DNA of 64,000 nucleotides from Candidatus Uhrbacteria bacterium (GTDB taxonomy: Bacteria; Patescibacteriota; Patescibacteriia; UBA9934; GWF2-40-263). The stretch lies in contig JACPHT010000007.1 of NCBI GenBank assembly GCA_016188475.1, positions 16,467 to 80,466 of the forward strand. The letters run 5' to 3'. Numbering within the stretch: position 1 is the stretch's first letter; each line of letters starts with the position of its first letter. The position numbers were made by a program, and so were the translations under genes. The notes below the pieces were generated by a model. It searched no databases, was not told the origin of the DNA, and saw only the letters and a list, made by a program, of their open reading frames with translations. This document shows, in pieces, positions 4,243 to 61,675 of this stretch.

Positions 4243-5610
4243 CTATATTTCGTACTTCTCTTGAAACTCTGGAATAACAACTTCGGTTTTCAATTCGTGG
4301 CGAAGATGTGTCGCAAATACTTCTTTTGCTTCCAAATCGCCATGCACAAGAAAAACCTTTTTTGGAATTTTACCATCTTCAGGATTCAACCATCGCGTGA
4401 GTTTGTTCATATCTCCATGAGCAGAAAAAGCTCCGATTGCTATTGTTCGAGCGTTTACTCTTACTTCTTCTCCAAAAATTATCACACGTTTCGCGCCTTC
4501 GTAAATTTTCCTTCCAATTGTTCCTTTGGCTTGAAAACCGATGATCAGAAGGGTTGTTTTTTGATCAGAAAGATACCGAATTAAGTGGTGCATAATCCGG
4601 CCGCCAGACATCATGCCAGAACCTGCGACAATAACTTTTGGCGCAGGTGTGTCATTGATTTTTTTTGATTCTTCAACCGTCAAAGTTTCGCGCAAATTTT
4701 TAAAACTGAAAAAATCTCGATCCGATTCCTTCAAAATCGATTCATCAAATTCCAAATACTCTTTGAAGTCGCGGTAAAGTTGCGTTGCGCGGATCGCCAT
4801 TGGACTGTCAAGGAAAATCGGACAATTCGTAACAAGATCGTGTTCGAGAATTTGATTGAGCGCGTATAAAAGTTCTTGAGTACGCTCAATCGAAAATGCT
4901 GGGATAAGAAGAACTGATCGATCTTTGAGCGTTTGTTCGATCGCGGCTTTCAACTTGGACTCACGTTCACTCACTGGTTCGTGAACTCGATGTCCGTAAG
5001 TTGATTCACAAATAACAACGTCAGCGTGTGAAATCGCTTCAGTGTCAGGCAAAATTGGAACATCATCATTTCCAATATCACCTGAAAAAACAACTCGCTT
5101 TCCTTCTGCTTCAACTGAAATGAACGCGGAACCGAGCACATGTCCAGCTTCGTGGAACATAATTGATATACCCGGTGCAATATCAAGTTGTTCGTGATAG
5201 TTAACGCCTTTAACTGAATCAAACGCATTTAACAAATCTTCCATTTCATACAAAATAGAACTTCCGCATTTTTCAGCTTCCTCCTTCATGATGTGATGCG
5301 CATCTTCAAGAACGAGTTTGCTCAAACCAATGCACGGATGAGTCATGTAAATAGGACCGTGAAATCCTGCTTTGAAAAGTTTTGGCAAACGACCAGTGTG
5401 ATCTGCGTGCGGATGTGTTACAAAAACCGCTTCAACTTGTTTTGCATCAAAACCAAATGGTTCGAAGTTTTTGCCGCCGCATAAATGTTCACCTTGGAAC
5501 ATTCCGCAATCAATTAAAAATTGATGCTCTTTTTTGTTTGAATCAAGAGTTCGCAATAAAAAACACGAACCTGTTACTTCACGGGCAGCTCCGTGGAACG
5601 ATAATTCCAT
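4243..5610 (-). CDS. Metallo-beta-lactamase / beta-CASP RNA-metabolising hydrolase (RNase J-like).
   Basis: HxHxDH motif (VTHPHADHTG) in an MBL fold, followed by a beta-CASP-like region. Length is 455 aa. Confidence 0.6.
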   Translation of the reverse strand: MELSFHGAAREVTGSCFLLRTLDSNKKEHQFLIDCGMFQGEHLCGGKNFEPFGFDAKQVEAVFVTHPHADHTGRLPKLFKAGFHGPIYMTHPCIGLSKLVLEDAHHIMKEEAEKCGSSILYEMEDLLNAFDSVKGVNYHEQLDIAPGISIMFHEAGHVLGSAFISVEAEGKRVVFSGDIGNDDVPILPDTEAISHADVVICESTYGHRVHEPVSERESKLKAAIEQTLKDRSVLLIPAFSIERTQELLYALNQILEHDLVTNCPIFLDSPMAIRATQLYRDFKEYLEFDESILKESDRDFFSFKNLRETLTVEESKKINDTPAPKVIVAGSGMMSGGRIMHHLIRYLSDQKTTLLIIGFQAKGTIGRKIYEGAKRVIIFGEEVRVNARTIAIGAFSAHGDMNKLTRWLNPEDGKIPKKVFLVHGDLEAKEVFATHLRHELKTEVVIPEFQEKYEI

Positions 5611-6017
5611 ATTGATAAAACTAAAATCGCGAGAATGATTGTTTGCGAACTAATACAAATCAAACACCAGGTTTTCAAAACAAAAAGCTCAATCCCTGTC
5701 AGATATAAACTGAACAACAGACCGCCAATGGAAGCTAAAAGAATAAATCTATCAATAGAGCGATCTGTTGGATTGCGAAGCGAAAGAAACCCTCCGATTG
5801 CAAGAAACAAATATCCGATCACACCAATAAGCGAAACTGGAATTCCAACAATTTGTGAATACGGACCTTTGTTAACGATGTCGCAATCAAACGTGCTGTT
5901 TATTGAACAAAATTTTCCTGACGCAAATCCTGCATTGTGAAAAAACGCGTAAAGAGAAATTGTCACGCCGATGAGCGACAAAATAATTATCATTTTCATT
6001 CTCGAAGTTTTTGACAT
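5574..6017 (-). CDS. VKOR-like (vitamin K epoxide reductase family) integral membrane protein.
   Basis: A four-TM protein with a loop Cys pair (CSINSTFDC) and a CxxC (CLIC) at the start of the last TM. It overlaps the upstream gene's 3' end, so the true start may be the downstream Met MKMIIIL. Confidence 0.55.
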   Translation of the reverse strand: MSKTSRMKMIIILSLIGVTISLYAFFHNAGFASGKFCSINSTFDCDIVNKGPYSQIVGIPVSLIGVIGYLFLAIGGFLSLRNPTDRSIDRFILLASIGGLLFSLYLTGIELFVLKTWCLICISSQTIILAILVLSIWNYRSTELPVK

Positions 6018-6118: not shown

Positions 6119-6514
6119 TCATTGACTTGCCTTCTCCGGCAACTCACATTGACTTTTCTCTGCCAATTCGTCAAGCGATCTTTCGCCTGTTAGTCTGCTT
6201 CCGTCAGCAAATTCCCAAGTCGGATATCCCTCAATTCCAGCGTCTTTGCATTCTTGATTCATTGCTTTTGAACCAGGGAGAGAACATTCAATGTAACTGA
6301 CTTTACCAAACGCCCCTTCAAATAATTTTTTCTGATTCTGACAATGCGGACACCACCATGCGCCGTACATTTTCACATTTTGTTCTGTCAGACATTGTGC
6401 AAAAGAGTCGTATCTGGATGGTCCGGAGTTTTGTTTTATAACGACTACCATCAAAACAACTACAACGATCGCCGCGACGATATAAAGAATAGACGACGAA
6501 TTTAACTTTATCAT
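6119..6514 (-). CDS. Membrane-anchored thioredoxin-fold protein (CPHC active site), the likely redox partner of the adjacent VKOR.
   Basis: WWCPHCQ motif. The start is reassigned to MIKLNSS (the ATG whose reverse complement lies at 6514-6512). The longer ORF-track N-terminus (6515-6712) reads through a repeat region and overlaps dus. Confidence 0.55.
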   Translation of the reverse strand: MIKLNSSSILYIVAAIVVVVLMVVVIKQNSGPSRYDSFAQCLTEQNVKMYGAWWCPHCQNQKKLFEGAFGKVSYIECSLPGSKAMNQECKDAGIEGYPTWEFADGSRLTGERSLDELAEKSQCELPEKASQ

Positions 6515-6575
6515 ATTGCTAAGAGTATACCTTATCCTTGAACATTTGCCATTCTTCCTGTATCTTCCTTTCGTT

Positions 6576-7610
6576 ATGATATTAGACTGGAAAAAGTTGA
6601 AACGTCCGATTCTCGCACTTGCGCCAATGGCCGACATGACTGACTCGGCGTTTTGTCGTACTGTGATGGGAGTAACAGAGTCAAAAAAGTCAATAGAGTC
6701 AATGGAGATCACTGAGCCAGCTATATTGACTCATTTGACTCCTTTGACTCCAAGACTAATCGTCTTCCGCGAAATGGTTTCCTCGGAAGCCGTTGTTCGT
6801 GAAAACAAAAAAACGATCAACATGACAACAATCAATCCAGTTGAACGTCCGATTGTGCAACAACTATTTGGAAGTGATCCTGACGTGATGGCCGAAGCCG
6901 CGCGAAAAATTGAGGAAGAACATTATCCTGAAGGTTTTGACATCAACATGGGTTGTCCGGTTTATAAAATCGTCCACAACTTCAACGGAGCCGCTTTGAT
7001 GAACGAACCGGATCGCGCAACAGAGATTGTAAAAAAAATGAAAGCCGCGGTTTCAGTTCCTGTGTCGGTGAAAATCAGAACTGGCTGGTCAGATTCAAAA
7101 CAGTGTTTGGAGTTTGCTCGCGTGCTAGAAAATGCAGGAGCTGATATGATAACGGTTCATGGTCGTACAAAAATACAAGGATATTCTGGCAAATCAGATT
7201 GGGATCGAATTCGCGAAGTCAAACAGCGAGTTTCGATTCCGGTTTTGGCAAATGGAGATATCCACACAGCTGAATTGACTTTGAAGGCGCTTGAGCAAAC
7301 TGGTTGCGATGGAGTCTCAATTGCTCGTGGAGCGCTTGGCAATCCATGGATATTTCAGCAAATATCTGAAATGTTGGATGGAAAAACTTCGACTCCTGTT
7401 TCTTGGAATAAACGGGTCGAGGTGATGAAAACACACTTTGCTTTTCACATTGAACAATATGGCGAGCGAGGCGTTTCAACTTTTCGCAAACATGTAAGTT
7501 GGTATTTACGAGGAATTGCTGGAGCAAAAAAATATAAAGAAAAACTTCATATTGTAAAAACGGTTGAAGAAGTTAATTTTATTTTGGATGAGATGAAAGA
7601 TAAAATATGA
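6576..7610 (+). CDS. dus: tRNA-dihydrouridine synthase (Dus). It carries a ~24-aa low-complexity insertion encoded by a palindromic 9-bp repeat.
   Basis: LAPMADMTDSAF and HGRT... motifs in a TIM-barrel flavoenzyme pattern. The start is reassigned to the ATG at 6576 (MILDWKK). Confidence 0.8.
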   Translation: MILDWKKLKRPILALAPMADMTDSAFCRTVMGVTESKKSIESMEITEPAILTHLTPLTPRLIVFREMVSSEAVVRENKKTINMTTINPVERPIVQQLFGSDPDVMAEAARKIEEEHYPEGFDINMGCPVYKIVHNFNGAALMNEPDRATEIVKKMKAAVSVPVSVKIRTGWSDSKQCLEFARVLENAGADMITVHGRTKIQGYSGKSDWDRIREVKQRVSIPVLANGDIHTAELTLKALEQTGCDGVSIARGALGNPWIFQQISEMLDGKTSTPVSWNKRVEVMKTHFAFHIEQYGERGVSTFRKHVSWYLRGIAGAKKYKEKLHIVKTVEEVNFILDEMKDKI

Positions 7611-9171: not shown

Positions 9172-10743
9172 TTACGTCATCACTGTTCCGCCGAATTCGC
9201 TCACGAGCTTTTGCAAATTTTCTTCGTTTTCATGTTTTTTTTGAATCGCTTTTACTTTAATACGACGACCAATCACTTTTTCCAAAACATCCTCAATCAC
9301 CTGACGGTTTTTATCTTTGTTAACTGTTTGAACATACAAATCGTACGCAAAACCAAGTTCGACGTGCTCGCCTGTTACTCCGCAAACTTCGCACGACTGC
9401 ATGAACAGTGGTAAGGACGCATTACACTCTTTGATCTGTTCAAAAACTTGCGGCCATTTTGCGCGAACTTCATCAAGAGAAATGACTGGGATCGTATCAA
9501 AAACTGTTTCGTTTTCCCCTTCGACAAGCTCAGGGAGTAATGAATTTTCTTGCTCACCAATCTCGGTCCTTTCAGACCTTTCGGTCCTTTCCGACCTTTC
9601 CGACCTTTCGGTCCTTTCCGACCTTTCAGACCTTTCTTCATAAACCGAACCAACCCCCTGCTCCTTAAAATCCACTTGTCCTCCTTTGTCCTCCTTTGTC
9701 TCCTTTTGTCCTCCATTGTCACATATCTCAACAATAGCGAGCTCGATCGGCAACTGCGGCAAATGTTCGGAACGAATTTTTGTTTTCGCTTCAAGCAAGG
9801 AGGTGAGGGCTTGACGCGTAAACGAAATATCAGACTCTGGCAAAGCTTTTGAAAGTTGATCAAACAAACGATCACGCAAATTCGCGATCACATCTTCAAC
9901 AAACATTTTCAAATCAACTCCTTGTTCAATAAATGTATTCAAGTCAGAAATACAGCTTCCTGTATTTTTTTTAAAAAGATGACTAACAAAAGTTTCAACC
10001 AAAACCGTTGTTGTGGCAGGAAGAACAAGCGAAGCAAGTTCAACAGTGATGTGGTTTTCACCCAAAGCCATGAGTTGGCCAAGCAAACTCTCGGCGTCTC
10101 GCGCACAACCTGTGCTATGTCGAACTACTTGCTCAAGAACCTCATCATCAATTTTCATTTCCTCTGATTTTACAATTTCTCGCAACCGTTTCATCATTTC
10201 TTCCTTTTTAATTTTTCTAAAATCAAATCTTTGACATCGACTCACGATTGTTTCCGGAACTTTGTGAATTTCAGTTGTTGCTAAAATAAAAAGCACATGC
10301 TCTGGCGGCTCTTCAAGTGTTTTCAAAAGCGCATTGAATGCCGAAGTTGAAAGCATGTGAACTTCATCAATAATAAAAACTTTCTTTTTGAGTTGATTTG
10401 GAGCAAAACGAACGCTTTTGATTATATTTTCTCGAACATTCTCTACGTCTGTATTAGACGCAGCATCAATTTCGTAGATATCAAGCGAAGAACCTGAAGT
10501 GACTTGTTCACATGCGGAACACGTGTTGCATGGTTCGTTGTGTTTTGGTTTTTCACAATTAATAAGCTTTGCCAAAAGTCGCGCAGTTGTTGTTTTTCCA
10601 ACTCCACGCGGACCAGTAAACAAATAAGCATGGGCGATGCGGCCCATTTCAAATTGGTTTTGAATAGTTGTTGATACATGCGGCTGACCAATTAAATCAG
10701 AAAACTTTTGTGGTCTGTACGCACGGTATAAGGCTAAGGACAT
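9172..10743 (-). CDS. dnaX: DNA polymerase III subunit gamma/tau. It carries an in-frame ERSERSERTERSERSERTERSERTE low-complexity linker.
   Basis: GPRGVGKTT Walker A motif, Zn-module cysteines, DEVHMLS, and a clamp-loader fold pattern. Length is 523 aa. Confidence 0.85.
   Translation of the reverse strand: MSLALYRAYRPQKFSDLIGQPHVSTTIQNQFEMGRIAHAYLFTGPRGVGKTTTARLLAKLINCEKPKHNEPCNTCSACEQVTSGSSLDIYEIDAASNTDVENVRENIIKSVRFAPNQLKKKVFIIDEVHMLSTSAFNALLKTLEEPPEHVLFILATTEIHKVPETIVSRCQRFDFRKIKKEEMMKRLREIVKSEEMKIDDEVLEQVVRHSTGCARDAESLLGQLMALGENHITVELASLVLPATTTVLVETFVSHLFKKNTGSCISDLNTFIEQGVDLKMFVEDVIANLRDRLFDQLSKALPESDISFTRQALTSLLEAKTKIRSEHLPQLPIELAIVEICDNGGQKETKEDKGGQVDFKEQGVGSVYEERSERSERTERSERSERTERSERTEIGEQENSLLPELVEGENETVFDTIPVISLDEVRAKWPQVFEQIKECNASLPLFMQSCEVCGVTGEHVELGFAYDLYVQTVNKDKNRQVIEDVLEKVIGRRIKVKAIQKKHENEENLQKLVSEFGGTVMT
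9565..9636. repeat. Eight tandem 9-bp units GGTCCTTTC/CGACCTTTC (the reverse complement of GAAAGGWCN) inside the dnaX CDS.
   Basis: Direct reading. The period is 9 bp, so the reading frame is preserved. Confidence 0.8.
9678..9720. repeat. About 4 tandem units of the 10-bp repeat GTCCTCCTTT inside the dnaX CDS.
   Basis: Direct reading. The same repeat is present at 47186-47229. Confidence 0.75.
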
Positions 10744-11449: not shown

Positions 11450-11490
11450 CAAAATTTTATCCTTCGACAGGCTCAGGAAATAAAATTGTG
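11450..11490. repeat. Hairpin element with a conserved TTCGACAGGCTCA loop (stem CAAAATTTTAT / ATAAAATTGTG).
   Basis: Member of the dispersed family described in the findings. Confidence 0.7.
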
Positions 11491-14660: not shown

Positions 14661-17600
14661 TTAACTGCACCCACTCGTTGCGCCGCAGTTCAGACACTTA
14701 TAACACGCGGCGTTGCGGACCATGATTGAACCACAGGTGTCGCACGCTGGCGCGTCGGATTGGTTATCGAAAGTTTTTGTTGTGTCGAACAGCTTCGGCT
14801 GTTTTATTTCCTCCTCTTGCCTATTGCCTATTGCATCTTCTTCCTTTACTTCCTTTTCTTCAACTCCAACATTGATTCCAAGCGAGATTTGCGACTCTTG
14901 TGGGAGAAATTTGATCGCAAGCCAGCGGAAAATATAATCAGTAATAGATTTAGCAATTCGAATTTGCGGATTGTTTGTGTATCCAGACGGCTCAAAGCGC
15001 ATGTGCACAAACTTGTTCACCAAAACTTCAAGCGGAACTCCGTATTGCAAACCAATTGAAATCGCAGTTGCAAAACTATCCATAAGTCCACTTATGACCG
15101 AGCCTTCTTTTGACATTGTCATGAAAAGTTCTCCTGGCGAACCATCATCATACAATCCAACTGTGATATAACCCTCGTGACTTCCAACTTTAAACTTGTG
15201 CGTGATCGCGCGCCTTTCATCAGGCAAACGGCGACGACGCAATTTGTTGTCTGAACTAACAGTCACTGTTGGAACAGTCGTTTTTTCTTCTGGCATATTT
15301 TTGTCCTCCTCTTTCTCCACTCCATTCGCCGTCTGAAGCCGGCGACTACCTTCCTCTCCCTTATTCTGTTTCTTCGCATCGCTTTCTTTAGAAGTTGTAA
15401 GCGCTTGTTGACGTTTTGACCCGTCGCGATAAATCGCAATCGCTTTCAAACCAAGTTTCCAACCTGTTTCGTAAACCTCGATAATGTCTTCCGATGTCGC
15501 GTCGTGAGGCATATTCACTGTTTTTGAAATCGCTCCGGAAACAAACGGCTGAACAGCGGCCATCATTCGAACATGACCCATGTAATGAATTGTGCGAGTT
15601 CCGTTCGCGGCCTTAAAGGCACAGTCAAAAACCGGCAAATGTTCTTGTTTGAGGTGCGGAGCGTTTTCAATCGTGTCTGTTTTTTCAATATGCGCCAAAA
15701 TTTCTTCACGCTCTTTTTGCGAATATCCAAGCCTTGTCAAAGCTTCTGGAACTGTGTTGTTAACGATTTTCAACATTCCTCCGCCAACAAGCCATTTATA
15801 TTTCACGAGCGCAATATCCGGTTCAACTCCTGTTGTATCACAATCCATCAAAAATGAAATAGTACCTGTTGGCGCGATAACGCTGATCTGAGCGTTACGC
15901 AAACCGTGAAGACTTCCGTGTTCCACAACATTGTCCCAACTCATACGAGCTTCTGTAAGCAAATCAGCAGGAACTCCATTTGGATTGATTTCGTACGATG
16001 CGTCGCGATGCATTCTCATCACTTCCAAACACGGAGCTTCATTTTGTTTGTATCCTGCAAACGGCCCGATTTTTTCAGCGATCTTAGAGGACTGAAAATA
16101 GCAATGTCCGCTTTGAAGTGAAGTAATCGCGGCCGCAAAATTTCGTCCTTCGTCTGAATCATACGGAACTCCGCGACTCATTAAAAACGCGCCAAGATTC
16201 GCGTATCCGATTCCAAGCGGACGATAATCCAAACTGTTTTGTTCAATCGCCGGAGTTGGATAAACTGAATTTCCAATAATTATTTCCATCGCTGTCACAA
16301 CTATTTCGTTCGCTTTTTTGAAAGCATCAACATCAAACACCATCAAGCCGCCAACTTCCTTTCTAAACTTCATTATATTAAGCGACGCCAAATTGCACGC
16401 GCTGTCGTTTAGGAACATGTACTCTGAACAATTGTGGACGACGAGACCGTTGGCAACAAAATGATTCGTCCGTGGTTCTGTCAGATCGAAGACGTCTTCT
16501 GATCCAACAAAAGTGAGAGATTCAAATTTATCCGTCAACTCATCTTTATAGGTAGTAACGGTTTCGTTCATGAATGCAAGGTCGTTTGATTTGAAACTCC
16601 GATCCAAAAAACTAATTTCTTTTTCAAAAATCAATCGCGACGAACGACTCACGCGCAAAGAATGCATTTGTTGAACATGATATATTGCCCAGCCGCCTTT
16701 TCCATCTGGTAAACGAGATTGAAAAGATGTTCGACGATTTTCATAAATTTTCGCTTTAATCCCAAAGCCGAGCAAAAGAAGTTGAACTTGTCTCAAAAGT
16801 GTTAAGCTCACTGAATCAAGAGCGATATACTGTGATTTGTTTTCGTAATTTGCAACTGTCCCATCGGCTGTAAAAAGTCCACGGAGAATGGCGGCCTGTG
16901 AATTTTTTTCTAAACTAAAAACTTCGTCAGTGAATCTTTTTTCTTTTGACCCTTGATCTAATACAGCGTATTTTTTTAACGGTTCAAGTATACATCGGCT
17001 ACTTGTTCCAATTCGAACTCCAGTTTGAGTTGATACAACACTGCTCCATCTTGCGCCACGCCCATCTTCCGAAACGGATTGTTTGTAACCGTTCATCCTA
17101 AAATTAAACATCTCAAGCATGTCTGTTTCTTCTCTTCCACCAACAACCATTGCAAATTCTTGATGTGTTTTATAATTTGTTGAAAGACAACCGTCGCCAA
17201 TAGTAAGTCCAATCATTTCCGCAACAACTTCATCTTCACGCTTATTTCCAAAACCAGGCTGTTTCAATTCAAGAACATCACCAGGTTTTAATTCTTTTGC
17301 AAGCACGTCTCCGCGATTGCGTGTAAAAACTTTGTGATCTTCGGTTAGTCGAACCGAATACCCGCTTTTTGTTTGAAGTTCAAAAATCTTTTTGTGCCCT
17401 GTAGGAAAAATTTTATCAACTCGCGAAGACTGTCCGTCTGCCGCAATAATCTCAGCGGAACCTCCAACTAAATCACTTATTCGTTTATACCCTGATGTTG
17501 TTGAAACAAGCGTGTCACCTGTCACGCATGGATTTGACGCGTAAATTCGATCTGTGTTTTTGCATGTGTGCCATTTGTTGATTGTTGTGTCGTATTGAAT

Positions 17601-19854: not shown

Positions 19855-19916
19855 AAGAAAGGTCTGAAAGGTCGGAGAGGACAGAAAGGTCTGAAAGGAG
19901 GGAAAGGTCTGAAAAG
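19855..19916. repeat. Seven tandem 9-bp units AAAGGTCTG in an intergenic spacer.
   Basis: Same family as the dnaX-internal repeat. Confidence 0.75.
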
Positions 19917-26576: not shown

Positions 26577-26602
26577 ATAAAACCGGTTATCCCTTGATCG
26601 AA

Positions 26603-26645
26603 GGCAAAATTATAGCCTTCGACAGGCTCAGGCGATAATTTTGCC
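26603..26645. repeat. Hairpin element with a conserved TTCGACAGGCTCA loop (stem GGCAAAATTAT / ATAATTTTGCC, a perfect 11 bp).
   Basis: Direct reading. Confidence 0.75.
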
Positions 26646-26698
26646 GAAGTCGAATGGTATAACCGTTTTTTTGATTAAACGAAAAAGCAACTCAGTGT

Positions 26699-47180: not shown

Positions 47181-47539
47181 AAATTGTCCTCCTTTGTCCT
47201 CATTTGTCCTCCTTTGTCTTCTTCTTCCACTGCCAACTTTCTCACCAGCTTCGTTATCTCACGCTCAACATCTTCAATTTTTCCAAAAAGCCGAAATATC
47301 AAATAGAATAAAGCGATGAGCGAAATATAAATTACAAAATCCGCGCCGCGTCCTACTCCGACAAGTTTCGCAATAACATCAGTTGTTTGAGGTGATATCG
47401 CAACACCACCAACCACAATCCAAAATACAATCCAAAAAATAAGCCACGCGATCGAAAGTGCTCCTTGTCGAAACTGACGAAGCGTCCGCGAGATCGCGAA
47501 CAAAGCAAATAGAAGAATGAAGATTTGGATGAGGGACAT
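47177..47539 (-). CDS. DUF2304-like small membrane protein. Its C-terminal tail (EEEDKGGQ..) is encoded by the 10-bp repeat.
   Basis: Two TM helices. The context after a GT2 gene is typical for this family. Confidence 0.5.
   Translation of the reverse strand: MSLIQIFILLFALFAISRTLRQFRQGALSIAWLIFWIVFWIVVGGVAISPQTTDVIAKLVGVGRGADFVIYISLIALFYLIFRLFGKIEDVEREITKLVRKLAVEEEDKGGQMRTKEDNL
47186..47229. repeat. About 4 units of the 10-bp repeat GTCCTCCTTT. Same repeat as in dnaX.
   Basis: Direct reading. Confidence 0.75.
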
Positions 47540-47542: not shown

Positions 47543-47577
47543 GAAAAATCTGAAAGGACCGAAAGGTCGGAAATGTC
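47543..47577. repeat. About 4 units of the 9-bp repeat GAAAGGWCN.
   Basis: Direct reading. Intergenic. Confidence 0.7.
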
Positions 47578-49651: not shown

Positions 49652-51235
49652 TTAAAAATTCGCATCAAGTCCAGCCACTGACTTTTTCTCTGTTGCGACG
49701 TCGTAATCCGAAGTCGAATTGATCTTCAAACCAAACGTGTAATTTCCAACAAATGCGTCGGAAATATCATCGATCTGTTTGTTCCATGTTGAGCCATACA
49801 GTTCTGTTGCTATTTGTTCGGACGCTATCGCTCGCAGTTCTCCTTTTTTTGACACTGTATAAACAGTTGGCACTGTTTGAAACTTCACCATTTTTGTTCC
49901 AGGATGATATGTCACATTTTTCCCAAGTTGGAGTGAGGACATGAATGAAGAAGAAACTTCTTTCACGTTGTTGAAATTATCAAACCAAGTGAAAAAAACT
50001 TTATCGTTTGGAAATGAGTGACGCTTTCCGTCTGACGCATAAAAATAAACAGCTCGACATGGATCGTCCGCTTTTGTTTCTCCAACGCACGAGAGTTTTA
50101 TTAGAGAATTTTGTTCAACAGAAACAGCCGCGTTGCTTATATCTATTTTCGCAAACGATGGTGCCATAACGAACGCTTGCGCAATATTTAATCGCCCTGT
50201 TCCAACTTTTCCTTTTGCATCACCAGTTGAAATAACAGGACTCGCGGATAAACGTAAAATCGTTTCGATATCGCTCGGACCAAGAATCGGATAAGATGAT
50301 TTCAAAAGCGCGGCCGCTCCCGCAACCATTGGCACCGCCATTGAAGTTCCGGCCCAACCATTTGCATAATATGCAGACGAAAAATCTCTTTGATTGTCAT
50401 CTTGAAATGTTGTGCTAAAAATGTTTTCACCGGGCGCTGAAATGTCAGTGCATGTGGAACCGTAATTGGAAAAATCGGATTTCGTGTCGTTTTCGTCACT
50501 TGACGCAACTCCGATTACCCAGTCAGCGTTTCCTCCGTCACCATGACATGCTGGATAAATAGGTTTGTCATCAACGTTTATTCCACCACCCTTGGTGTTG
50601 CCGACCGCCGCGACAATTACAACTCCAGCTTCATACGCTTCTTTAATCGCATCCTTAAAAGATGGGTCAACTTCAAAACCAGTAAAACTCAAGTTGATTA
50701 CATTAGCTCCGTTTGCAACCGCATACTGAATTGCTTCTTTCGCTACAACAGATCCACCGATTCCGTTGTTGTCTAAAATTCTCAAATTCATCATCCTCAC
50801 ATGCCAGTTTATTCCTGCGATTCCATTTGCATTATTTCCAACAGCGCCAATTATTCCTGCTATAACAGTCCCGTGAGGAATGGCTGAATCGTCGTATGGT
50901 AAATTGAACGATGGAATTGGACTTGCGTCATCATCAACGAAATCATATCCGTTTACATCATCAATGTAACCATTTTTGTCATTATCAATTCCGTCACCAG
51001 CAGTTTCATCACCGTTTACCCAAACATTACCAACAAGATCGGGATGATCCATGTCAAAACCTGTATCAAGAATCGCGACAACAACATCTGTTGAACCAAT
51101 GTTGGAATCCCAAGCTTGTTCTAATTCCATTTTTTTCAAATACCATTGTTGTGAAAAATAAAAATCATTAGGTGTTAGTGCGAACGCTGGAAATGCAAAT
51201 GTTGCGCAAAAAAAGATCACGAAAAAATATCGCAT
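49652..51235 (-). CDS. Secreted subtilisin-like serine peptidase (S8) with a C-terminal ~140-aa conserved surface domain.
   Basis: Asp (VAILDTGFD), His (HGTVIAGI) and Ser (GTSMAVPMVAG) catalytic motifs. Signal peptide present. Confidence 0.85.
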   Translation of the reverse strand: MRYFFVIFFCATFAFPAFALTPNDFYFSQQWYLKKMELEQAWDSNIGSTDVVVAILDTGFDMDHPDLVGNVWVNGDETAGDGIDNDKNGYIDDVNGYDFVDDDASPIPSFNLPYDDSAIPHGTVIAGIIGAVGNNANGIAGINWHVRMMNLRILDNNGIGGSVVAKEAIQYAVANGANVINLSFTGFEVDPSFKDAIKEAYEAGVVIVAAVGNTKGGGINVDDKPIYPACHGDGGNADWVIGVASSDENDTKSDFSNYGSTCTDISAPGENIFSTTFQDDNQRDFSSAYYANGWAGTSMAVPMVAGAAALLKSSYPILGPSDIETILRLSASPVISTGDAKGKVGTGRLNIAQAFVMAPSFAKIDISNAAVSVEQNSLIKLSCVGETKADDPCRAVYFYASDGKRHSFPNDKVFFTWFDNFNNVKEVSSSFMSSLQLGKNVTYHPGTKMVKFQTVPTVYTVSKKGELRAIASEQIATELYGSTWNKQIDDISDAFVGNYTFGLKINSTSDYDVATEKKSVAGLDANF

Positions 51236-51258
51236 AAAACTTCAAGCCAAATTTTATT

Positions 51259-51492
51259 CCTTGAGCTTGTCGAAGAGACAAAATTTGGTTAAATCATCTA
51301 CAGCCTTCGACAGGCTCAGGCAATAACTATTCATAACGCATTACCACCTTCGACAGGCTCAGGCAATAACTATTCATAACGCATTACCACCTTCGACAGG
51401 CTCAGGCAATAACTATTCATAACGCATTACCACCTTCGACAGGCTCAGGCAATAACTATTCATAACGCATTACGGCTCAGGCAATAATTTGC
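51259..51492. repeat. Tandem array of about 4.5 units of a 43-bp repeat CCTTCGACAGGCTCAGGCAATAACTATTCATAACGCATTACCA. A degenerate reverse-orientation copy precedes it.
   Basis: Direct reading. Units begin at 51304, 51347, 51390 and 51433. Confidence 0.85.
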
Positions 51493-51513
51493 AACATGCA
51501 AATTGTTTCTATT

Positions 51514-53553
51514 CTACCAGATCGCACAGGTTGCACCGAATCTGTTTGACAATGTAAATGGAAAAAATCCACCAAGAACAACGCCGTTATTTTCAAAAAT
51601 TCTCAAATGAGGACCGGCTTTTAACAAAGGCATTGTGTAAATTTCAGCGCGACCGTTTTGATCAATATCTCCTGAACACACTTTTGCTCCGACACTCGTT
51701 TTTTGTTGATAAGGCATGAAAAATGTCTCGCGTGTTCCTGTTGGTGAATATGTCTCGATAAACGAAACTTTTTTGATGAGCGAGCTAACTACGATTTCAT
51801 TTTGCCCATCGCCATCAATGTCGCTGGCTGAAATGGTTTGTCCTTTTGAATCTTTTGAGAGACTAAACTCTCGAACATAACGACCGTCGCCATCTGTAAT
51901 TCGAATCAAGGATTCATTTTTTTGTTGAAGCAAAAATATAAGTTCATTTGACGCGTCTTCATCCATATTCGCAATCGCAAGTTGAAGAACTGAATCAACA
52001 CGCCCAAATGGACGCAACATACCCTGAAGCTGTCCATAACGATTAAACATTCGCACATCTCCAATGCCTCCAGACTCTGAAACAACAAAAATTTCTGCGA
52101 TTCCATCCGCGTTCACATCACCTGAAAACACCAAAATTCCACCGCGATCCGATGGATCATAAGCAAAAAACTGCGAAAGCAATTTTCCATCTAAATCAAA
52201 AACTCGAACTTGTGGACCGCCGCCTTTCCTCGCGCCAGTAATAATTTCTTCTTTTCCATCGCCATTAACATCAGCCATTGCGAGCGAAACACCACCGCGA
52301 AAATTCTTGTTATAAGCCAAAAACGACCCTTGTTTTTCTCCGTGAGCGTTAACGCGGATGACGCGAGGTTCAGTTCCAGGACCTTCTGCCACAACAAGAG
52401 AACGAGAATGGTCTGTGTTTGTTTTGACAGGTGCGATTCCTTGACCTGTTGCAAAAACTTTCGCGGCTTGAAGCGCGTTCGCAATGTTCAATCTTCCGGA
52501 GCCAAGACGTTTGCGAGCTTCAACTGAAGTTTCCTTCACTGGATCAACAGAAAGTTTGAGAGACAAACGGATCTGTTCCGGAGTTAGCGATGGAAACGCG
52601 GATTTCAAAAGAGCAGCCGCGGCGCTGACCATTGGCGCGGCGATTGATGTTCCTTCCCATGGCGAACCATACGAAGTCGAGGTCAAAAGATTTGACGCGT
52701 CATTGTACACGCTCGAAAAAATGTTTGTGCCAGGAGCGCTTAAGTCAGTACATCTTTCTCCAAAATTAGAGAACGTCGCTTTTTGGTCATTTTTATCTGT
52801 TGCCGCAACACCGATTACAATTTCTTTGTTCAAAAGTGAATCGTAACACGCTGGATAACTTGGTTTTAGATTCACATCGCGATCGCCATTTCCTACTGCG
52901 GAAACCACCACAACACCTTGATCAACCGCCCACGCAATCGTCTTTGCAAAATTCATGTCAGATTGATCAGACGTAAAACTCAAATTGATAACTTGCGCGC
53001 CGTTTTTTACAGCGTATTCAATTGCTTGTCGCACATCATAAGTTGATCCAGCGCCTTTTTCGTTTAAGATTCGAAGTGGCATGATTGAAATTTTTTGATT
53101 AATACCAGCGATTCCGATTCCATTTTTTGTTTCAGCTCCGATAATTCCAGCGATCGCTGTTCCATGCGAAATGATTGTGTCATTGAACTCCTTGCTTATC
53201 ACAGGAGACGGGTCAGGATCACTGTCAACAAAATCCCATCCGATCGTGTCGTCTTCATATCCATTTCCGTCATCGTCTTTATGATTGTTCGGGATTTCCA
53301 ATTTATTGCGCCAATACTGATTTTCAAGGTCTTCATGATCAAGATCAAATCCGGCATCAAGAATCGCGACAATAACATCAGTAGAGCCAATGGTTTCCTG
53401 CCAAGCAAGCGAAACACCAATTTTATTCAAATACCATTGTTCATTGTAAAACGGATCGTTTTGAGATTTGGCAGATAAATGAAAAAAAGGCGTAAAAATC
53501 ACGCTAATTAGAATTAAAAAATAAAAACTGAATGCAAAAACAGACGCTTTCAT
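51514..53553 (-). CDS. Subtilisin-like S8 peptidase fused to C-terminal FG-GAP/VCBS repeats.
   Basis: S8 D/H/S motifs (AILDAGFD, HGTAIAGI, GTSIAAPMVS). FG-GAP-type repeats (DVNGDGKEEI, DVNADGIAEI). The start is reassigned to MKASVFAF at 53553. Confidence 0.8.
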   Translation of the reverse strand: MKASVFAFSFYFLILISVIFTPFFHLSAKSQNDPFYNEQWYLNKIGVSLAWQETIGSTDVIVAILDAGFDLDHEDLENQYWRNKLEIPNNHKDDDGNGYEDDTIGWDFVDSDPDPSPVISKEFNDTIISHGTAIAGIIGAETKNGIGIAGINQKISIMPLRILNEKGAGSTYDVRQAIEYAVKNGAQVINLSFTSDQSDMNFAKTIAWAVDQGVVVVSAVGNGDRDVNLKPSYPACYDSLLNKEIVIGVAATDKNDQKATFSNFGERCTDLSAPGTNIFSSVYNDASNLLTSTSYGSPWEGTSIAAPMVSAAAALLKSAFPSLTPEQIRLSLKLSVDPVKETSVEARKRLGSGRLNIANALQAAKVFATGQGIAPVKTNTDHSRSLVVAEGPGTEPRVIRVNAHGEKQGSFLAYNKNFRGGVSLAMADVNGDGKEEIITGARKGGGPQVRVFDLDGKLLSQFFAYDPSDRGGILVFSGDVNADGIAEIFVVSESGGIGDVRMFNRYGQLQGMLRPFGRVDSVLQLAIANMDEDASNELIFLLQQKNESLIRITDGDGRYVREFSLSKDSKGQTISASDIDGDGQNEIVVSSLIKKVSFIETYSPTGTRETFFMPYQQKTSVGAKVCSGDIDQNGRAEIYTMPLLKAGPHLRIFENNGVVLGGFFPFTLSNRFGATCAIW

Positions 53554-53613
53554 ATAGCGTCTGCATTGTAACATTGGTATCTTGTTTTCTCCAGATTCTG
53601 TATGGCGGTAGTT

Positions 53614-53688
53614 AAAGAGCGGTAGCACTATGTCTCCAGGCCATCGGACTGTCGCCGCTGTTCCTTTCGACATAGTGCTACCGCTCTT
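53614..53688. repeat. GC-rich inverted-repeat element. It has perfect 19-bp arms AAAGAGCGGTAGCACTATG / CATAGTGCTACCGCTCTTT, and the core is TCTCCAGGCCATCGGACTGTCGCCGCTGTTCCTTTCGA.
   Basis: Direct reading. Confidence 0.8.
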
Positions 53689-53750: not shown

Positions 53751-55214
53751 TTAAAAATTCGCATCAAGTCCAGCCACTGATGTTTTCTCTGTTGCGACGT
53801 CGTAATCTGAAGTCGAATTGATCTTCAAACCAAACGTATAATTTCCAACAAACGCGTCGGAAATATCATCGATCTGTTTGTTCCATGTTGAGCCATACAG
53901 TTCTGTTGCTATTTGTTCGGACGCGATTGCGCGTAATTCACCCTTCTTTGATACTGTATAAACAGTTGGCACTGTTTGAAACTTCACCATTTTTGTTCCA
54001 GGATGATATGTCACATTTTTCCCAAGTTGGAGTGAGGACATGAATGAAGAAGAAACTTCTTTCACACTGTCAAAGTTATCAAACCATGTAAAAAAAACTT
54101 TGTCGTTTGGAAACGCATGACGCTTCCCGTCTGACGCATAAAAATAAACTGCTTTACATGGATCATTTATTTGAGCGTTTACTTGACAGGCGAGTTTGAT
54201 GAGATTCCCAGCCACAGCTTCAGCCGTACCCCCTTCGACTGGCTCAGGGGATATTACTGTATCTACTGGCGTTTCCGTAACCGCTTCCCATTTCAATATC
54301 ACTGACTGATAATCATCTTTTGTGCCAGCAATCCAAAGTTCGTTCGTTGATGGATAATAAACATCACGGAGTGTGAAATTTTGCGGTGTATAATCTGTTG
54401 CTGTCCAAGTTTTTCCTCCATCTTGCGATCGAACAATAATTTTGTCGCCGACAATCACAATATCATCGCCAACTGCTTCAATGTCATAAAGCGTTTGTGT
54501 TGAAAGTCCGCTTACTGAAATCGTTGACCACGAATATCCGCTATCTGTTGTTTTTCGAATCGTTCCATTTTTTCCAACAACATATCCAGACGAAGAACTT
54601 GTAAACCAAACAGCAAGCAAATCTGTGTCAGTCGCCTTTCCTTTATTTGTCCACGTAATTCCAGAATCTGTTGTTTTTAACAATATCCCTTCTGAACCGA
54701 CAACCCACGCTGTTCCGTCACCACGATCTTGCACACCGAACAACGCAAGTGTCGTATTCGAAGTTGTTGTGTTCCATGTATCTGTATTTGAACCGTAATA
54801 TAAAATCCTGCCGTTTGTTCCAACAATGTACCCATGTTCAGAAGAAGCATCAATATCATAAAAAGTATCAGTGATTTCAAGTTTCCTTTGACTCCACGTC
54901 AAACCATTATTTGTTGATTCACGCAAGGTTCCACCTTCTCCAACCGCTCGGACTGTTGTTCCTGTTGTTTCAATATCTTGCCAATAAACATTTCCGCTTT
55001 GATCATACACAGTCCAAGTGTTTCCATTGTCAGTTGAACGAATGATGTTGCTTCCGTTTCCAACAGCAAAATAATTATCACCGGCTTTTGTAATACCTTG
55101 CAGACCTTGAATTGTTCCTTTTTCTTTTTCAATCCAACCTGAAGCGTGAGTCGGAAGAGAGATAAAAAACAATAAGACAAAAATCATTGATCTAATAAAA
55201 AAACGGTTCTTCAT
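53751..55214 (-). CDS. Secreted BNR/Asp-box repeat beta-propeller protein. It carries the same C-terminal ~140-aa domain as the S8 peptidase at 49652-51235.
   Basis: Multiple S/T-x-D-x-G-x-T-W boxes (STDNGNTW, STNNGLTW, TTDSGITW, TTDSGYSW, SQDGGKTW). Signal peptide present. Confidence 0.65.
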   Translation of the reverse strand: MKNRFFIRSMIFVLLFFISLPTHASGWIEKEKGTIQGLQGITKAGDNYFAVGNGSNIIRSTDNGNTWTVYDQSGNVYWQDIETTGTTVRAVGEGGTLRESTNNGLTWSQRKLEITDTFYDIDASSEHGYIVGTNGRILYYGSNTDTWNTTTSNTTLALFGVQDRGDGTAWVVGSEGILLKTTDSGITWTNKGKATDTDLLAVWFTSSSSGYVVGKNGTIRKTTDSGYSWSTISVSGLSTQTLYDIEAVGDDIVIVGDKIIVRSQDGGKTWTATDYTPQNFTLRDVYYPSTNELWIAGTKDDYQSVILKWEAVTETPVDTVISPEPVEGGTAEAVAGNLIKLACQVNAQINDPCKAVYFYASDGKRHAFPNDKVFFTWFDNFDSVKEVSSSFMSSLQLGKNVTYHPGTKMVKFQTVPTVYTVSKKGELRAIASEQIATELYGSTWNKQIDDISDAFVGNYTFGLKINSTSDYDVATEKTSVAGLDANF

Positions 55215-55660: not shown

Positions 55661-55740
55661 CATTATTGCCTGAGCAAAGTCGAAGGCTGTAGATGATTTA
55701 TTCAAATTTCATCCCTTCGACAGGCTCAGGGAATAAAATT
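55661..55740. repeat. Inverted pair of TTCGACAGGCTCA-type motifs (CCTGAGCAAAGTCGAAGG ... CCCTTCGACAGGCTCAGGG).
   Basis: Direct reading. Confidence 0.7.
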
Positions 55741-55827
55741 TGACTATCTTACGAGAATTTTCTTGTTTGTCAATCAGAGGATGTTGATAACATTAAGAGA
55801 TCCTTCGCGGAGTTTACCCTGAACGAA

Positions 55828-55869
55828 GGTAAAGTTATGCCTTCGACAGGCTCAGGTAATAACTTTACC
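55828..55869. repeat. Hairpin element with a conserved TTCGACAGGCTCA loop (stem GGTAAAGTTAT / ATAACTTTACC, a perfect 11 bp).
   Basis: Direct reading. Confidence 0.75.
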
Positions 55870-55899
55870 TAGGTCAAAGGGCTCAGAATAACAAACGAT

Positions 55900-55931
55900 A
55901 TAAAACCAAAACCCCCGCGAAAAGCGGGGGT
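55900..55931 (-). terminator. Rho-independent terminator after the large surface-protein gene (CCCCCGCTTTTCGCGGGGG followed by TTTTGGTTTT on the minus strand).
   Basis: Direct reading. Confidence 0.6.
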
Positions 55932-55954
55932 TGTTTGGTTCTTAATTCTCGCAT

Positions 55955-55994
55955 CCTTCGACTCCGGCAAATTATTGCCTGAGCCTGTCGAAGG
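55955..55994. repeat. Partial inverted pair of the same motif (CCTTCGACTCCGG ... CCTGAGCCTGTCGAAGG).
   Basis: Direct reading. Confidence 0.6.
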
Positions 55995-56036
55995 CCGTAA
56001 CTGCCTCCGCTCAGGGTATATGAGAGTCAAGTTAGA

Positions 56037-61639: not shown

Positions 61640-61675
61640 TCATACTGCCTTCGACAGGCTCAGGCAATAAACGTA
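61640..61675. repeat. TTCGACAGGCTCA motif copy (GCCTTCGACAGGCTCAGGC) in the divergent promoter region.
   Basis: Direct reading. Confidence 0.65.

What the first reader, a model, noticed from the sequence alone, without database searches (positions are those of the whole stretch)
51259..51492. 43-bp tandem array (about 4.5 identical units) of the UUCGACAGGCUCA motif between two S8 peptidase genes
The unit CCTTCGACAGGCTCAGGCAATAACTATTCATAACGCATTACCA is repeated head-to-tail with essentially no divergence. A degenerate reverse-orientation copy (CTTGAGCTTGTCGAAG) precedes the array at 51259-51277. The array fills the spacer immediately upstream of the S8 peptidase start at 51235 and downstream of the S8/FG-GAP gene stop at 51514. 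Identical units imply recent expansion or contraction, so this is a likely site of length polymorphism or phase-variable expression of a secreted protease. It is not CRISPR-like because there are no unique spacers.
Basis: seen in the sequence. Interest (0 to 1): 0.6.

Follow-up and report, generated by a model that had tools for sequence, protein, structure and literature searches.

The report
Tandem copies of a widespread hairpin repeat
The 43-base array is real, but it is a local pile-up of a small selfish-looking hairpin repeat that litters this Candidatus Uhrbacteria genome and many other bacteria, and nothing shows that it is a switch controlling the neighbouring protease gene.

Summary
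There are four exact 43-bp units at 51304-51473, then a 14-nt partial unit, and an inverted degenerate copy at 51254-51276. Together they fill most of the 278-nt spacer between two same-strand S8 peptidase genes.

The interpretation mostly does not hold. The core CCTTCGACAGGCTCAGG(N)AATAA is a dispersed repeat: 13-14 copies in this 64-kb window against 0 expected, and 12 of 14 lie in the 10% that is non-coding. The proximal array unit is one arm of an 82-nt inverted doublet that recurs at 55663-55742. The array duplicates that arm plus 20 nt of local flank.

Five related Uhrbacteria loci have no motif in this spacer. Their two genes overlap or sit 8-155 nt apart, so the array is a lineage-specific insertion into an old operon junction.

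The 13-nt loop TTCGACARGCTCA, closed by covarying base pairs, also occurs in Chloroflexota, Actinomycetota, Cyanobacteria, Proteobacteria, Bacteroidota, phage contigs and plasmids. It appears there as singles, inverted doublets and short tandem arrays (12 other loci). No Rfam family reaches threshold, and no paper in the searched library prints the sequence.

Best reading: a REP/REPIN-like palindromic repeat amplified locally by slippage. Length polymorphism is plausible but could not be tested. I found no evidence for phase variation.

The parts
51304..51473 (+). Four exact head-to-tail 43-bp units (CCTTCGACAGGCTCAGGCAATAACTATTCATAACGCATTACCA). Each unit is a 23-nt family motif plus 20 nt of sequence found nowhere else in the window.
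   Evidence: TRF gives period 43, 4.0 copies, 100% identity. The flank CTATTCATAACGCATTAC occurs only in the array.
51474..51487 (+). Partial unit holding only the 3' half of the motif (GGCTCAGGCAATAA). It lacks the 11 nt CACCTTCGACA.
   Evidence: Similar 3'-half duplicates beginning at GGCTCAGG sit next to full copies in other phyla.
51486..51504 (.). AT-rich palindrome AATTTGCA-aca-TGCAAATT just downstream of the S8/FG-GAP stop codon. It is not followed by a T run.
   Evidence: Sequence. It appears as a hairpin in the fold. No terminator was called.
51254..51276 (-). Degenerate inverted copy of the motif (TCTTCGACAAGCTCAAGGAATAA), 18 nt upstream of the S8 start codon.
   Evidence: nhmmer E=0.0013.
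51248..51326 (-). REPIN-like inverted doublet: reverse-complement motif, a 30-nt spacer containing CTGTAGATGATTTA, then the motif. Its distal arm is the first unit of the array.
   Evidence: It aligns with 55663-55742 (the repeat part about 87% identical by my count). It folds as a long hairpin with z = -5.2. It gives sub-threshold hits to hairpin models and to RF02901.
49652..51235 (-). Downstream gene: S8 serine peptidase, 527 aa, with a hydrophobic, signal-peptide-like N-terminus (read by eye, not predicted).
   Evidence: Pfam PF00082 E=3e-45. It is 100% identical to an NCBI 'S8 family serine peptidase [Candidatus Uhrbacteria bacterium]'. N-terminus shown.
51514..53673 (-). Upstream gene: S8 peptidase with FG-GAP repeats, 719 aa.
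   Evidence: Pfam PF00082, PF01839 and PF13517. The same gene pair is syntenic in L121, L122, L123, L277 and L278.
55663..55742 (+). Second copy of the 82-nt inverted doublet.
   Evidence: Fold z = -5.1.
55812..55895 (+). Mosaic family member: a full motif in the loop of a covarying AT-rich stem, flanked by collapsed reverse-complement motif pieces (CCCTGAnCGAAGG / CCnnAGTCGAAGG).
55940..56022 (-). Mosaic family member of the same three-part type, in opposite orientation. The family motif inside it (55972-55994) lies 43 nt downstream of the stop of the 1244-aa gene.
26588..26668 (+). Mosaic family member between the convergent genes rpmB (+) and hflX (-).
11461..11483 (+). Single family copy 11 nt downstream of the stop of the T4SS-coupling-protein-like gene.
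61648..61670 (+). Single family copy in the divergent spacer between an ECF-type sigma factor gene (-) and an HTH_17 gene (+).
   Evidence: The orthologous spacer in L278 has no copy.
9518..9540 (+). Family copy inside the variable linker of DnaX. It is read on the - strand as ..LLPELVEGE.. (aa 402-409).
   Evidence: E=3e-6.
54232..54254 (+). Family copy inside a variable linker of the BNR/YCF48-like protein. It is read on the - strand as ..SPEPVEGG...

Best explanation
The array is a recent local tandem amplification of one arm of a small palindromic dispersed repeat. The repeat resembles REP/BIME/REPIN elements and is defined by the 13-nt sequence TTCGACARGCTCA held between covarying closing base pairs. 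It has proliferated in the non-coding DNA of this Candidatus Uhrbacteria lineage.

Shown: the motif is dispersed and almost entirely intergenic. An 82-nt inverted doublet of it occurs twice. The array repeats the distal arm of one doublet together with 20 nt of unique local flank, so it grew by duplicating resident DNA and not by repeated insertion. The whole block is missing from the orthologous junction in relatives, where the two S8 genes are overlapping or closely spaced. Related elements in many phyla form the same singles, inverted pairs and short tandem arrays.

Inferred: amplification came from slipped-strand mispairing or unequal recombination between directly repeated copies, so unit number may drift. 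The family spreads with a factor supplied in trans that recognises the single-stranded loop, and I did not identify that factor. On the polycistronic mRNA the insert separates two formerly coupled cistrons and adds hairpins in the 3' UTR of the upstream gene. As with REP elements, that could change relative expression as a side effect and not as a designed switch.
For: The array is exact. The motif occurs 14 times against 1.56 expected. The 23-mer family has 13 copies against 0 in 20 shuffles. A profile search gives 12 hits with E<0.01 in the window, but only two hits (both coding) in 68 kb of other Uhrbacteria loci. 12 of 14 copies lie in the 10% of the window that is non-coding. Most sit just after stop codons or between convergent genes. 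The doublet is duplicated and folds with z about -5. The array flank is unique to the array. Orthologous spacers are a 4-nt overlap, then 8, 62, 117 and 155 nt, with no motif. Across 240 loci from other bacteria and phage contigs, the closing pairs are 97/96/82% Watson-Crick against 81/67/39% in shuffles, with CG/GC/TA covariation. Stems are more stable than arm-swapped controls (-7.5 vs -5.0 kcal/mol). There are 63 inverted neighbour pairs and 12 other tandem arrays with periods of 21-70 bp. Three mosaic copies in the window carry compensatory arm changes. Plasmid copies in Sphingobium, Moraxella and Comamonas always lie outside annotated genes.
Against: No mobilising enzyme was found. None of the window ORFs I scanned is a transposase, HUH or RT gene (ORFs between about 31.9 and 43.7 kb were not scanned). 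No recurrent gene lies between inverted motif pairs in 240 loci. The defining REP tags GTAG/CGTC are absent. Here the loop is conserved and the stem varies, the reverse of classic REPs. The 3' flank (GGRYGARCGG) is more conserved than its 5' complement, and only about a quarter of copies have strong extended stems. The hairpin is therefore not the whole story. The 11-nt gap in the terminal partial unit has no microhomology and simple slippage does not explain it. Copy number in a short-read assembly of 172 bp of perfect repeat may be inaccurate. No expression data exist.
Confidence: 0.7

Rival explanations
1. Contingency locus. Gain or loss of 43-bp units by slippage changes promoter geometry or 5'-UTR length and switches the downstream secreted S8 peptidase on or off.
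For: Four perfect direct repeats are a good slippage substrate. The array lies directly upstream of a gene for a probably secreted protease with a signal-peptide-like N-terminus. The spacer length at this junction varies between lineages from -4 to 278 nt.
Against: No sigma-70-like promoter is found on the gene strand in the spacer. The only match is on the opposite strand and is at chance level. The genes were ancestrally overlapping or adjacent, which implies co-transcription from upstream. The repeat is absent from five orthologous spacers. The same motif sits next to rpmB/hflX, a sigma factor gene, a T4SS-like gene, and inside the dnaX and BNR genes. It is therefore not specific to this gene. 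Units of 43 bp are far longer than typical phase-variation tracts (own knowledge).
Confidence: 0.08
2. Functional structured RNA. The motif hairpins are RNA modules (stability or termination elements, or binding sites for a conserved RNA-binding factor), and the array is a multivalent version acting on the S8 operon transcript or as a sponge.
For: The closing pairs and arms covary. The copies lie in 3' UTRs. The 13-nt loop is the same in very distant phyla. The Rfam family RF02901, an RNA-seq-detected Aggregatibacter sRNA, contains a doublet of the same family in its consensus: TGAGCTTGCCGAA ... TTCGGCAAGCTCA. At least one copy is therefore transcribed somewhere.
Against: Orientation relative to transcription is inconsistent in the window. 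The copies at 26616 and 61648 are sense to + strand genes, while most others are antisense to - strand genes. The same protein linker carries the motif in both orientations in different lineages. Copies are present or absent between close relatives. G:T and A:C mismatch counts show no clear strand preference. The array units themselves fold poorly: the whole spacer gives z = -2.6 with a diffuse ensemble. No Rfam family reaches threshold.
Confidence: 0.12
3. Assembly artefact in unit number. The locus truly holds the repeat, but the count of four was fixed by a short-read assembler and does not reflect the real population.
For: 172 bp of perfect 43-bp repeat is at the limit of what short reads resolve. 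The organism is a metagenome-assembled genome. In Logan assemblies of the same organism the RecJ contig is only 3.9 kb, and neither S8 gene was recovered intact. That fits with contigs breaking near repeats.
Against: Tandem arrays of the same family occur in many independent assemblies. The array has a distinctive out-of-register terminal unit, which a collapsed or expanded repeat would not create. This rival affects only the number of units, not what the element is.
Confidence: 0.1

Closest known systems
REP / BIME elements of enterobacteria and pseudomonads
   Same: They are short imperfect palindromes, high in copy number and almost exclusively extragenic, often just after stop codons or between convergent genes. 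They occur as singles, inverted pairs and clusters. Reported effects are on mRNA stability, termination and supercoiling, not on dedicated regulation (abstract of PMC3733652; own knowledge for BIME-2 clusters).
   Different: In REPs the stem sequence is conserved, one end carries a GTAG or CGTC tag, and families are lineage-specific. Here the 13-nt loop is the conserved part, the stems change with genome composition (CCGTTCGC.. in GC-rich genomes, TTATNCC.. here), no tag is present, and the same loop occurs across phyla. BIME clusters alternate orientation, whereas this array is purely direct.
REPINs mobilised by RAYT transposases
   Same: A REPIN is two inverted repeat copies separated by a short spacer that form one long hairpin and are replicated as a unit. 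The 82-nt doublets at 51248-51326 and 55663-55742 fit that form. Across the family, 63 inverted pairs lie within 120 bp (definition from PMC3337134 abstract).
   Different: No RAYT gene was seen in the window or next to motif pairs in 240 loci. REPIN-RAYT systems are described as vertically inherited and lineage-specific, unlike this cross-phylum motif.
Rickettsia palindromic elements (RPE) and cyanobacterial small dispersed repeats (SDR)
   Same: These are very small palindromic repeats with no coding capacity. They can sit in frame inside protein-coding genes and inside one another (own knowledge: Ogata et al. 2000; Elhai et al. 2008). Here copies lie in the DnaX and BNR protein linkers, and five of the six reading frames of the core are open.
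   Different: RPE are 100-150 bp and restricted to Rickettsia. SDRs are restricted to some cyanobacteria. I made no sequence comparison with either.
Rfam RF02901 AaHKsRNA41 (Aggregatibacter sRNA 41)
   Same: Positions 7-96 of its consensus are an inverted doublet with loops TGAGCTTGCCGAA / TTCGGCAAGCTCA. The second loop matches this motif's loop at 12 of 13 positions, and both have GC closing pairs. It is the only Rfam model that repeatedly picks up these doublets.
   Different: Scores are 20-34 bits against a gathering score of 97. The remainder of the 187-nt model does not match. The source paper does not discuss this RNA or any repeat nature.
Phase-variable tandem repeats (contingency loci)
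   Same: Both are perfect direct repeats next to a gene for a secreted or surface protein.
   Different: The unit is 43 bp rather than 1-10 bp (own knowledge). It lies in no promoter spacer or reading frame, it is not conserved at the locus, and it belongs to a genome-wide repeat family.

Membership tests
REP / BIME | Short imperfect palindrome able to form a hairpin | tested here: met
   Closing pairs are 97/96/82% Watson-Crick with covariation. Stems are more stable than swapped controls. Window copies have complementary AT-rich arms. Single copies at 11461 and 61648 fold weakly.
REP / BIME | High copy number, confined to extragenic DNA | tested here: met
   There are 13-14 copies in 64 kb against 0-1.6 expected. 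12 of 14 lie in the 10% that is non-coding. Plasmid copies all lie outside annotated genes.
REP / BIME | GTAG or CGTC tetranucleotide tag at one end of the palindrome | tested here: not met
   Window copies are flanked by TTATNCC / GGNAATAA. GTAG occurs only inside the spacer of the two doublets. The tag definition comes from the PMC3733652 abstract.
REP / BIME | Conserved stem sequence specific to a lineage | tested here: not met
   The loop is invariant, while the stems differ between copies and between phyla.
REPIN-RAYT | Two inverted copies plus a spacer forming one long hairpin, present in more than one near-identical copy | tested here: met
   The doublets at 51248-51326 and 55663-55742 align, with the repeat part about 87% identical by my count. 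Both fold with z about -5.
REPIN-RAYT | Single-copy RAYT (TnpA-REP, Y1 HUH) gene flanked by the repeats | tested here: inconclusive
   None was found among the window ORFs scanned with Pfam. None was found between inverted motif pairs in 240 loci. The rest of the 168-kb contig and of the genome was not available.
MITE | Terminal inverted repeats, flanking target-site duplication, and a related autonomous IS | tested here: not met
   Inverted termini are present. No direct duplication flanks either doublet (sequences). No transposase with these ends was seen.
Phase-variable (contingency) repeat tract | The tract lies in a promoter spacer or reading frame, so that unit number sets expression | tested here: not met
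   No promoter-like site is found on the gene strand. The unit is non-coding and is not a multiple of three. The genes are ancestrally overlapping or adjacent.
Phase-variable (contingency) repeat tract | Unit number varies between cells or strains | not testable with these tools
   No second assembly of the locus exists. Reads of SRR12113419 cannot be accessed here.
CRISPR array | Repeats separated by unique spacers, usually with cas genes nearby | tested here: not met
   All inter-motif segments are identical. No cas family appeared in the Pfam scans of neighbouring genes.
Rfam RF02901 AaHKsRNA41 | Covariance-model score at or above the gathering score of 97 bits | tested here: not met
   The score is 22.7 bits in the window and 33-34 bits at best elsewhere.

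The most novel reading that the evidence does not exclude
The TTCGACARGCTCA-loop hairpin may be an undescribed pan-bacterial class of very small mobile DNA. It is found in at least ten phyla, in phage contigs, in plasmids, and here in a burst within a small-genome CPR bacterium. The conserved single-stranded loop would be the recognition or cleavage site of a widely transferred or universal enzyme. The recurrent tandem arrays, half-motif duplicates starting at GGCTCAGG, loop flips and in-frame insertions into protein linkers would then be footprints of its copying mechanism. On this reading the 43-bp array is a fresh product of that mechanism.
Probability: 0.2. Interest if true: 0.75.

Novelty: new variant of a known kind. 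Interest (0 to 1): 0.42.

Why it matters
The locus itself is of little consequence. It is repeat DNA that has pushed apart two protease genes, and there is no sign of regulation. What deserves a specialist's attention is the repeat family. One 13-nt loop, held between covarying closing pairs, appears in genomes from Patescibacteria to Actinomycetota, Chloroflexota, Cyanobacteria and Proteobacteria, and in phage contigs and plasmids. No Rfam family covers it, and no paper in the searched library prints the sequence. It generates many of the short spurious peptides (..PFDRLR.., ..PEPVEG.., ..LSLSKG.., ..LRQAQG..) seen in automatic annotation, and it can become part of real protein linkers. Finding what recognises the loop would explain a very common piece of bacterial intergenic DNA. 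A recent burst in a roughly 1-Mb CPR genome would be a clean place to study it.

Tried and rejected
1. Rfam: nothing at gathering scores in the window or in 18 motif loci from other phyla. In E-value mode there were only long-hairpin miRNA models and sub-threshold RF02901.
2. Literature: searches for the DNA or RNA motif and for its peptide translations found nothing relevant. The REP survey PMC3733652 does not contain the motif.
3. Copy number across strains: exact-protein look-ups failed for both S8 genes. The homologue search found only this one 100% sequence. The metagenome scan found only relatives at 86% identity or less.
4. Associated enzyme: clustering of 2,671 ORFs near motifs gave only syntenic phage genes. 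Genes between inverted pairs 0.45-2.6 kb apart were ordinary, such as glyS, a sigma factor and phage capsid genes. An IS5-like fragment in L072 next to a tRNA-like 3' end was a one-off.
5. Promoter reading: TCGACA resembles a -35 box, but no consistent -10 box follows and the scan found nothing on the gene strand.
6. CsrA-type GGA loop: GGA is not conserved in the window variant, so I rejected this by inspection.
7. Mimicry of universal RNAs: GGCTCAGGAYGAAYG matches the 16S 5' end (seen in L154), but only in GC-rich stem variants and not in this genome. The matches to the tmRNA 5' end (UUCGACAGG) and the tRNA T-loop are 8-9 nt, within chance by my arithmetic. I treat all three as coincidence.
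8. Pfam on translated arrays: no family.
9. The AT-rich 23-mer variant is absent from viral contigs, so no phage source for the burst was found.
10. 5'-truncation (retroelement-like) idea: isolated 3' halves are not clearly above chance, and most lie next to full copies.

Full report
THE OBSERVATION. The array is exactly as described. Tandem Repeats Finder reports 51304-51473 with period 43, 4.0 copies, 100% matches and no indels (sequence). After the fourth unit comes GGCTCAGGCAATAA (51474-51487). This is the 3' half of the motif joined directly to ...CATTAC, without the 11 nt CACCTTCGACA. It is followed by an AT-rich palindrome (51486-51504) and by the stop codon of the upstream gene at 51514. 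On the other side, a degenerate inverted copy lies at 51254-51276, 18 nt from the ATG at 51235. Both flanking ORFs are on the - strand and are S8 peptidases, the upstream one with FG-GAP repeats. The start-codon context and the stop position are conserved in orthologues. The spacer is therefore 278 nt, of which about 240 nt is repeat-derived.

THE MOTIF IS A DISPERSED REPEAT. TTCGACAGGCTCA occurs 14 times in the window at <=2 mismatches, against 1.56 expected. The longer consensus CCTTCGACAGGCTCAGG-N-AATAA has 13 copies at <=5 mismatches, against none in 20 shuffles. A profile built from 358 family members finds 12 hits with E<0.01. About 90% of the window is coding, yet 12 of 14 copies are intergenic.

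The intergenic copies lie:
- 11 nt after the stop of a T4SS-coupling-like gene (11461);
- between convergent rpmB and hflX (26616);
- in the spacer after the 1244-aa gene (four copies, 55663-55994);
- between divergent sigma-factor and HTH_17 genes (61648);
- in the S8-S8 spacer.

Two further copies lie inside variable linkers of real proteins. In DnaX the motif reads LLPELVEGE, next to an (ERS)n tract. In a BNR/YCF48-like protein it reads SPEPVEGG.

ANATOMY AT THE LOCUS. Read on the - strand, the first array unit, a 30-nt spacer (CTGTAGATGATTTA...) and the inverted copy at 51254-51276 form an 82-nt inverted doublet (51248-51326). This doublet recurs at 55663-55742; by my count the repeat part of the alignment is about 87% identical. 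Both copies fold into long hairpins with z about -5. The array repeats the distal arm of this doublet together with 20 nt (CTATTCATAACGCATTAC...) that exist nowhere else in the window. The array therefore grew by tandem duplication of resident DNA, not by repeated arrival of an element. Three other copies (26588-26668, 55812-55895, 55940-56022) share a 65-nt mosaic. In these, the full motif sits in the loop of an AT-rich stem whose two arms differ between copies in a compensatory way (GGCAAAATTAT/ATAATTTTGCC against GGTAAAGTTAT/ATAACTTTACC). Collapsed reverse-complement motif pieces flank that stem.

ORGANISM AND COMPARISON WITH RELATIVES. The 527-aa peptidase is 100% identical to an NCBI protein of a Candidatus Uhrbacteria bacterium (Patescibacteria) on a 168-kb contig. 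The next best hits are 86% and 75% identical. The gene order (1250-aa protein, BNR, S8/FG-GAP, S8, epimerase, glycosyltransferases) is conserved in other Uhrbacteria. At the S8/FG-GAP to S8 junction:
- the genes overlap by 4 nt in L278;
- they are 8 nt apart in L123;
- 62 nt apart in L122;
- 117 nt apart in L277;
- 155 nt apart in L121.

None of these spacers contains the motif, either at two mismatches or with the profile. In 68 kb of such loci (the Uhrbacteria relatives plus L279, a short contig of this same organism) the only hits are the copies inside the BNR linker. The orthologous sigma/HTH_17 and 1250-aa/BNR spacers of L278 are also empty. The array and doublet are therefore a lineage-specific insertion into what was a tightly coupled operon junction. 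The whole family has recently expanded in this lineage.

THE FAMILY BEYOND THIS GENOME. The hosts include Chloroflexota, Actinomycetota, Cyanobacteria, Alpha-, Beta-, Gamma- and Deltaproteobacteria, Bacteroidota, Ignavibacteria, Vulcanimicrobiota, Acidobacteriota and others. It was again found in at least 120 viral contigs. It occurs in plasmids and chromids of Sphingobium (up to 15 places per record), Moraxella osloensis, Comamonas and Polaromonas, always outside annotated genes. By my arithmetic a 17-mer is expected about 70 times by chance in 596 Gb, so single hits prove little. The contexts, however, are clearly homologous:
- The consensus is RYCC-TTCGACARGCTCA-GGRYGARCGG.
- The closing pairs are 97/96/82% Watson-Crick, against 81/67/39% after shuffling. 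CG, GC and TA types covary, giving the CC..GG, GG..CC and GC..GC variants.
- Stems are more stable than arm-swapped controls.
- 63 inverted neighbour pairs lie within 120 bp.
- 12 other loci carry 2-4 tandem copies with periods of 21-70 bp, some exact and some already diverged.
- Small duplications of either half of the motif next to a full copy are frequent.

The stem sequence follows genome composition (CCGTTCGC... in GC-rich genomes, TTATNCC... here), while the loop stays the same.

WHAT IT IS NOT. No Rfam family reaches its gathering score in the window or at the motif in 18 other loci. The only recurrent sub-threshold hit is RF02901, an RNA-seq-defined Aggregatibacter sRNA. Positions 7-96 of its consensus are a doublet of the same family, with the motif-strand loop TTCGGCAAGCTCA matching at 12 of 13 positions. 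The source paper says nothing about it. Full-text searches for the motif and for its translations found nothing relevant. Pfam has no family for the translated arrays. The element lacks the GTAG/CGTC tag of classic REPs. It shows no target-site duplication. No transposase gene turned up in the window ORFs I scanned or next to motif pairs elsewhere. It has no unique spacers and no cas genes nearby.

MECHANISM. I commit to the following at about 0.7 confidence. The array is a by-product of a REP/REPIN-like palindromic repeat. Two directly repeated copies, or a copy and a half copy, provided the substrate. Slipped-strand mispairing or unequal recombination then amplified a 43-bp segment to four copies, very recently, since there are no substitutions in 172 bp. 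How the family spreads is unknown. The conserved single-stranded loop with interchangeable stems points to recognition of an extruded hairpin, as ssDNA or RNA, by a factor supplied in trans. This is an inference, and I found no candidate.

Effects on the S8 genes are also inferred. The insert uncouples two cistrons and adds hairpins after the upstream stop codon. By analogy with REP elements this may alter relative mRNA stability or read-through. The orientation of copies relative to transcription is inconsistent in the window. The same BNR linker carries the motif in opposite orientations in different lineages and a diverged variant in a third. The G:T against A:C mismatch counts show no strand preference. 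These points favour a DNA-level, largely selfish element over a dedicated RNA regulator.

Recent expansion is right, and length polymorphism is plausible, but I could not test it. No other assembly of the strain holds the locus. The same organism is present in three public runs whose reads would settle the question. Phase-variable control of the protease is unsupported. There is no promoter on the gene strand. The repeat is not conserved at the locus. The same repeat sits beside unrelated genes.

CAVEATS. The unit number comes from a metagenome assembly and may be wrong. From memory I believe the peptide strings that this repeat produces are familiar to annotators, so the family may have been noticed informally. 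I could only show that it is absent from Rfam at threshold and from the text of the searchable literature.

VERDICT. The feature is real and its local biology is ordinary. It belongs to a widespread hairpin-repeat family that, as far as I could find, has not been described.

Noticed in passing
window 54232-54254; L122 1204-1224; L278 7395-7409; L121 about 1150-1180: A variable linker (about aa 315-335) of the conserved BNR/YCF48-like protein carries the repeat motif in frame. The window and L122 read PEPVEG, with the motif antisense to the gene. L278 reads PSTGSG, with the same cccc...gggg-flanked 13-mer in the opposite orientation at the same site. L121 has a diverged variant (gtcatccTGAGCGAGCCGGAgg) plus extra hairpins. 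The linker looks like a hot spot where the element is inserted, flipped and absorbed into coding sequence.
   Followed up: partly
window 9518-9540 and 9568-9720: The DnaX (tau/gamma) linker contains a motif copy read as LLPELVEGE. It lies next to a 9-bp tandem tract encoding (ERS/ERT)n and a 10-bp tract (TTGTCCTCCT x4.5). Much of the linker appears to be built from short repeats.
   Followed up: partly
window 26588-26668, 55812-55895, 55940-56022: These are three-part mosaic versions of the repeat. A full motif is flanked by arms that covary between copies, and outside those arms lie collapsed reverse-complement motif pieces that can pair with the two ends of the central motif. Two alternative folds are therefore possible.
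   Followed up: partly
Rfam RF02901 against window 51191-51332, L096 2782-2863, L007 3203-3257: The Rfam family AaHKsRNA41 (Aggregatibacter sRNA 41) contains an inverted doublet of this repeat family in its consensus. It may therefore be a transcribed repeat copy and not a dedicated sRNA gene.
   Followed up: partly
window 19856-19914, 47552-47577, 47184-47218: Short tandem repeats lie immediately upstream of - strand start codons. GAAAGGTCN is repeated x6 and x3; on the gene strand this gives CCTTTC-rich 5' leaders. TTGTCCTCCT is repeated x3.5; on the gene strand this is AAGGAGGACAA, giving several tandem Shine-Dalgarno-like sequences before the ATG at 47180.
   Followed up: no
window 6014-6127, 6677-6707, 6726-6751: About a dozen copies of (T)TGACT at roughly 9-bp spacing lie in the gap between ORFs 5574..6017 and 6119..6712. 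Reverse-orientation copies lie near 6677-6751. They could be iteron-like or transcription-factor-array-like. Their meaning is unknown.
   Followed up: no
window 14661-18962: The class II (B12-dependent) ribonucleotide reductase gene is interrupted by an intein with a LAGLIDADG homing endonuclease domain.
   Followed up: no
L004 91-160, L043 about 4400-4620, L113 248-400, L240 about 10500-10600, L272 4642-4700 and 7867-7900, L238 5400-5700: Other phyla and phage contigs carry tandem arrays of the same motif with unit lengths of 21-70 bp. These include a four-unit, 50-bp array in a Bacteroidales MAG whose units have begun to diverge, and a BIME-like array of alternating orientation in a viral contig.
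   Followed up: partly
L154 3620-3665 (a 16S rRNA 5' end) compared with GC-rich family members such as L023, L027, L050: The 3' half of the motif plus the common GC-rich stem (GGCTCAGGAYGAACG) is almost identical to the 5' end of 16S rRNA just after the 27F primer site; L154 itself reads GGCTCAGGATGAATG. The match is lost in the AT-rich variant of this window and does not follow phylum-specific 16S differences, so it is probably coincidence. I did not explain it.
   Followed up: partly
L277 2200-2318 and L121 3850-4000: The same S8-S8 junction in other Uhrbacteria is filled with different small palindromes and short repeats that are unrelated to this motif. The junction seems to be a general sink for insertions.
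   Followed up: no
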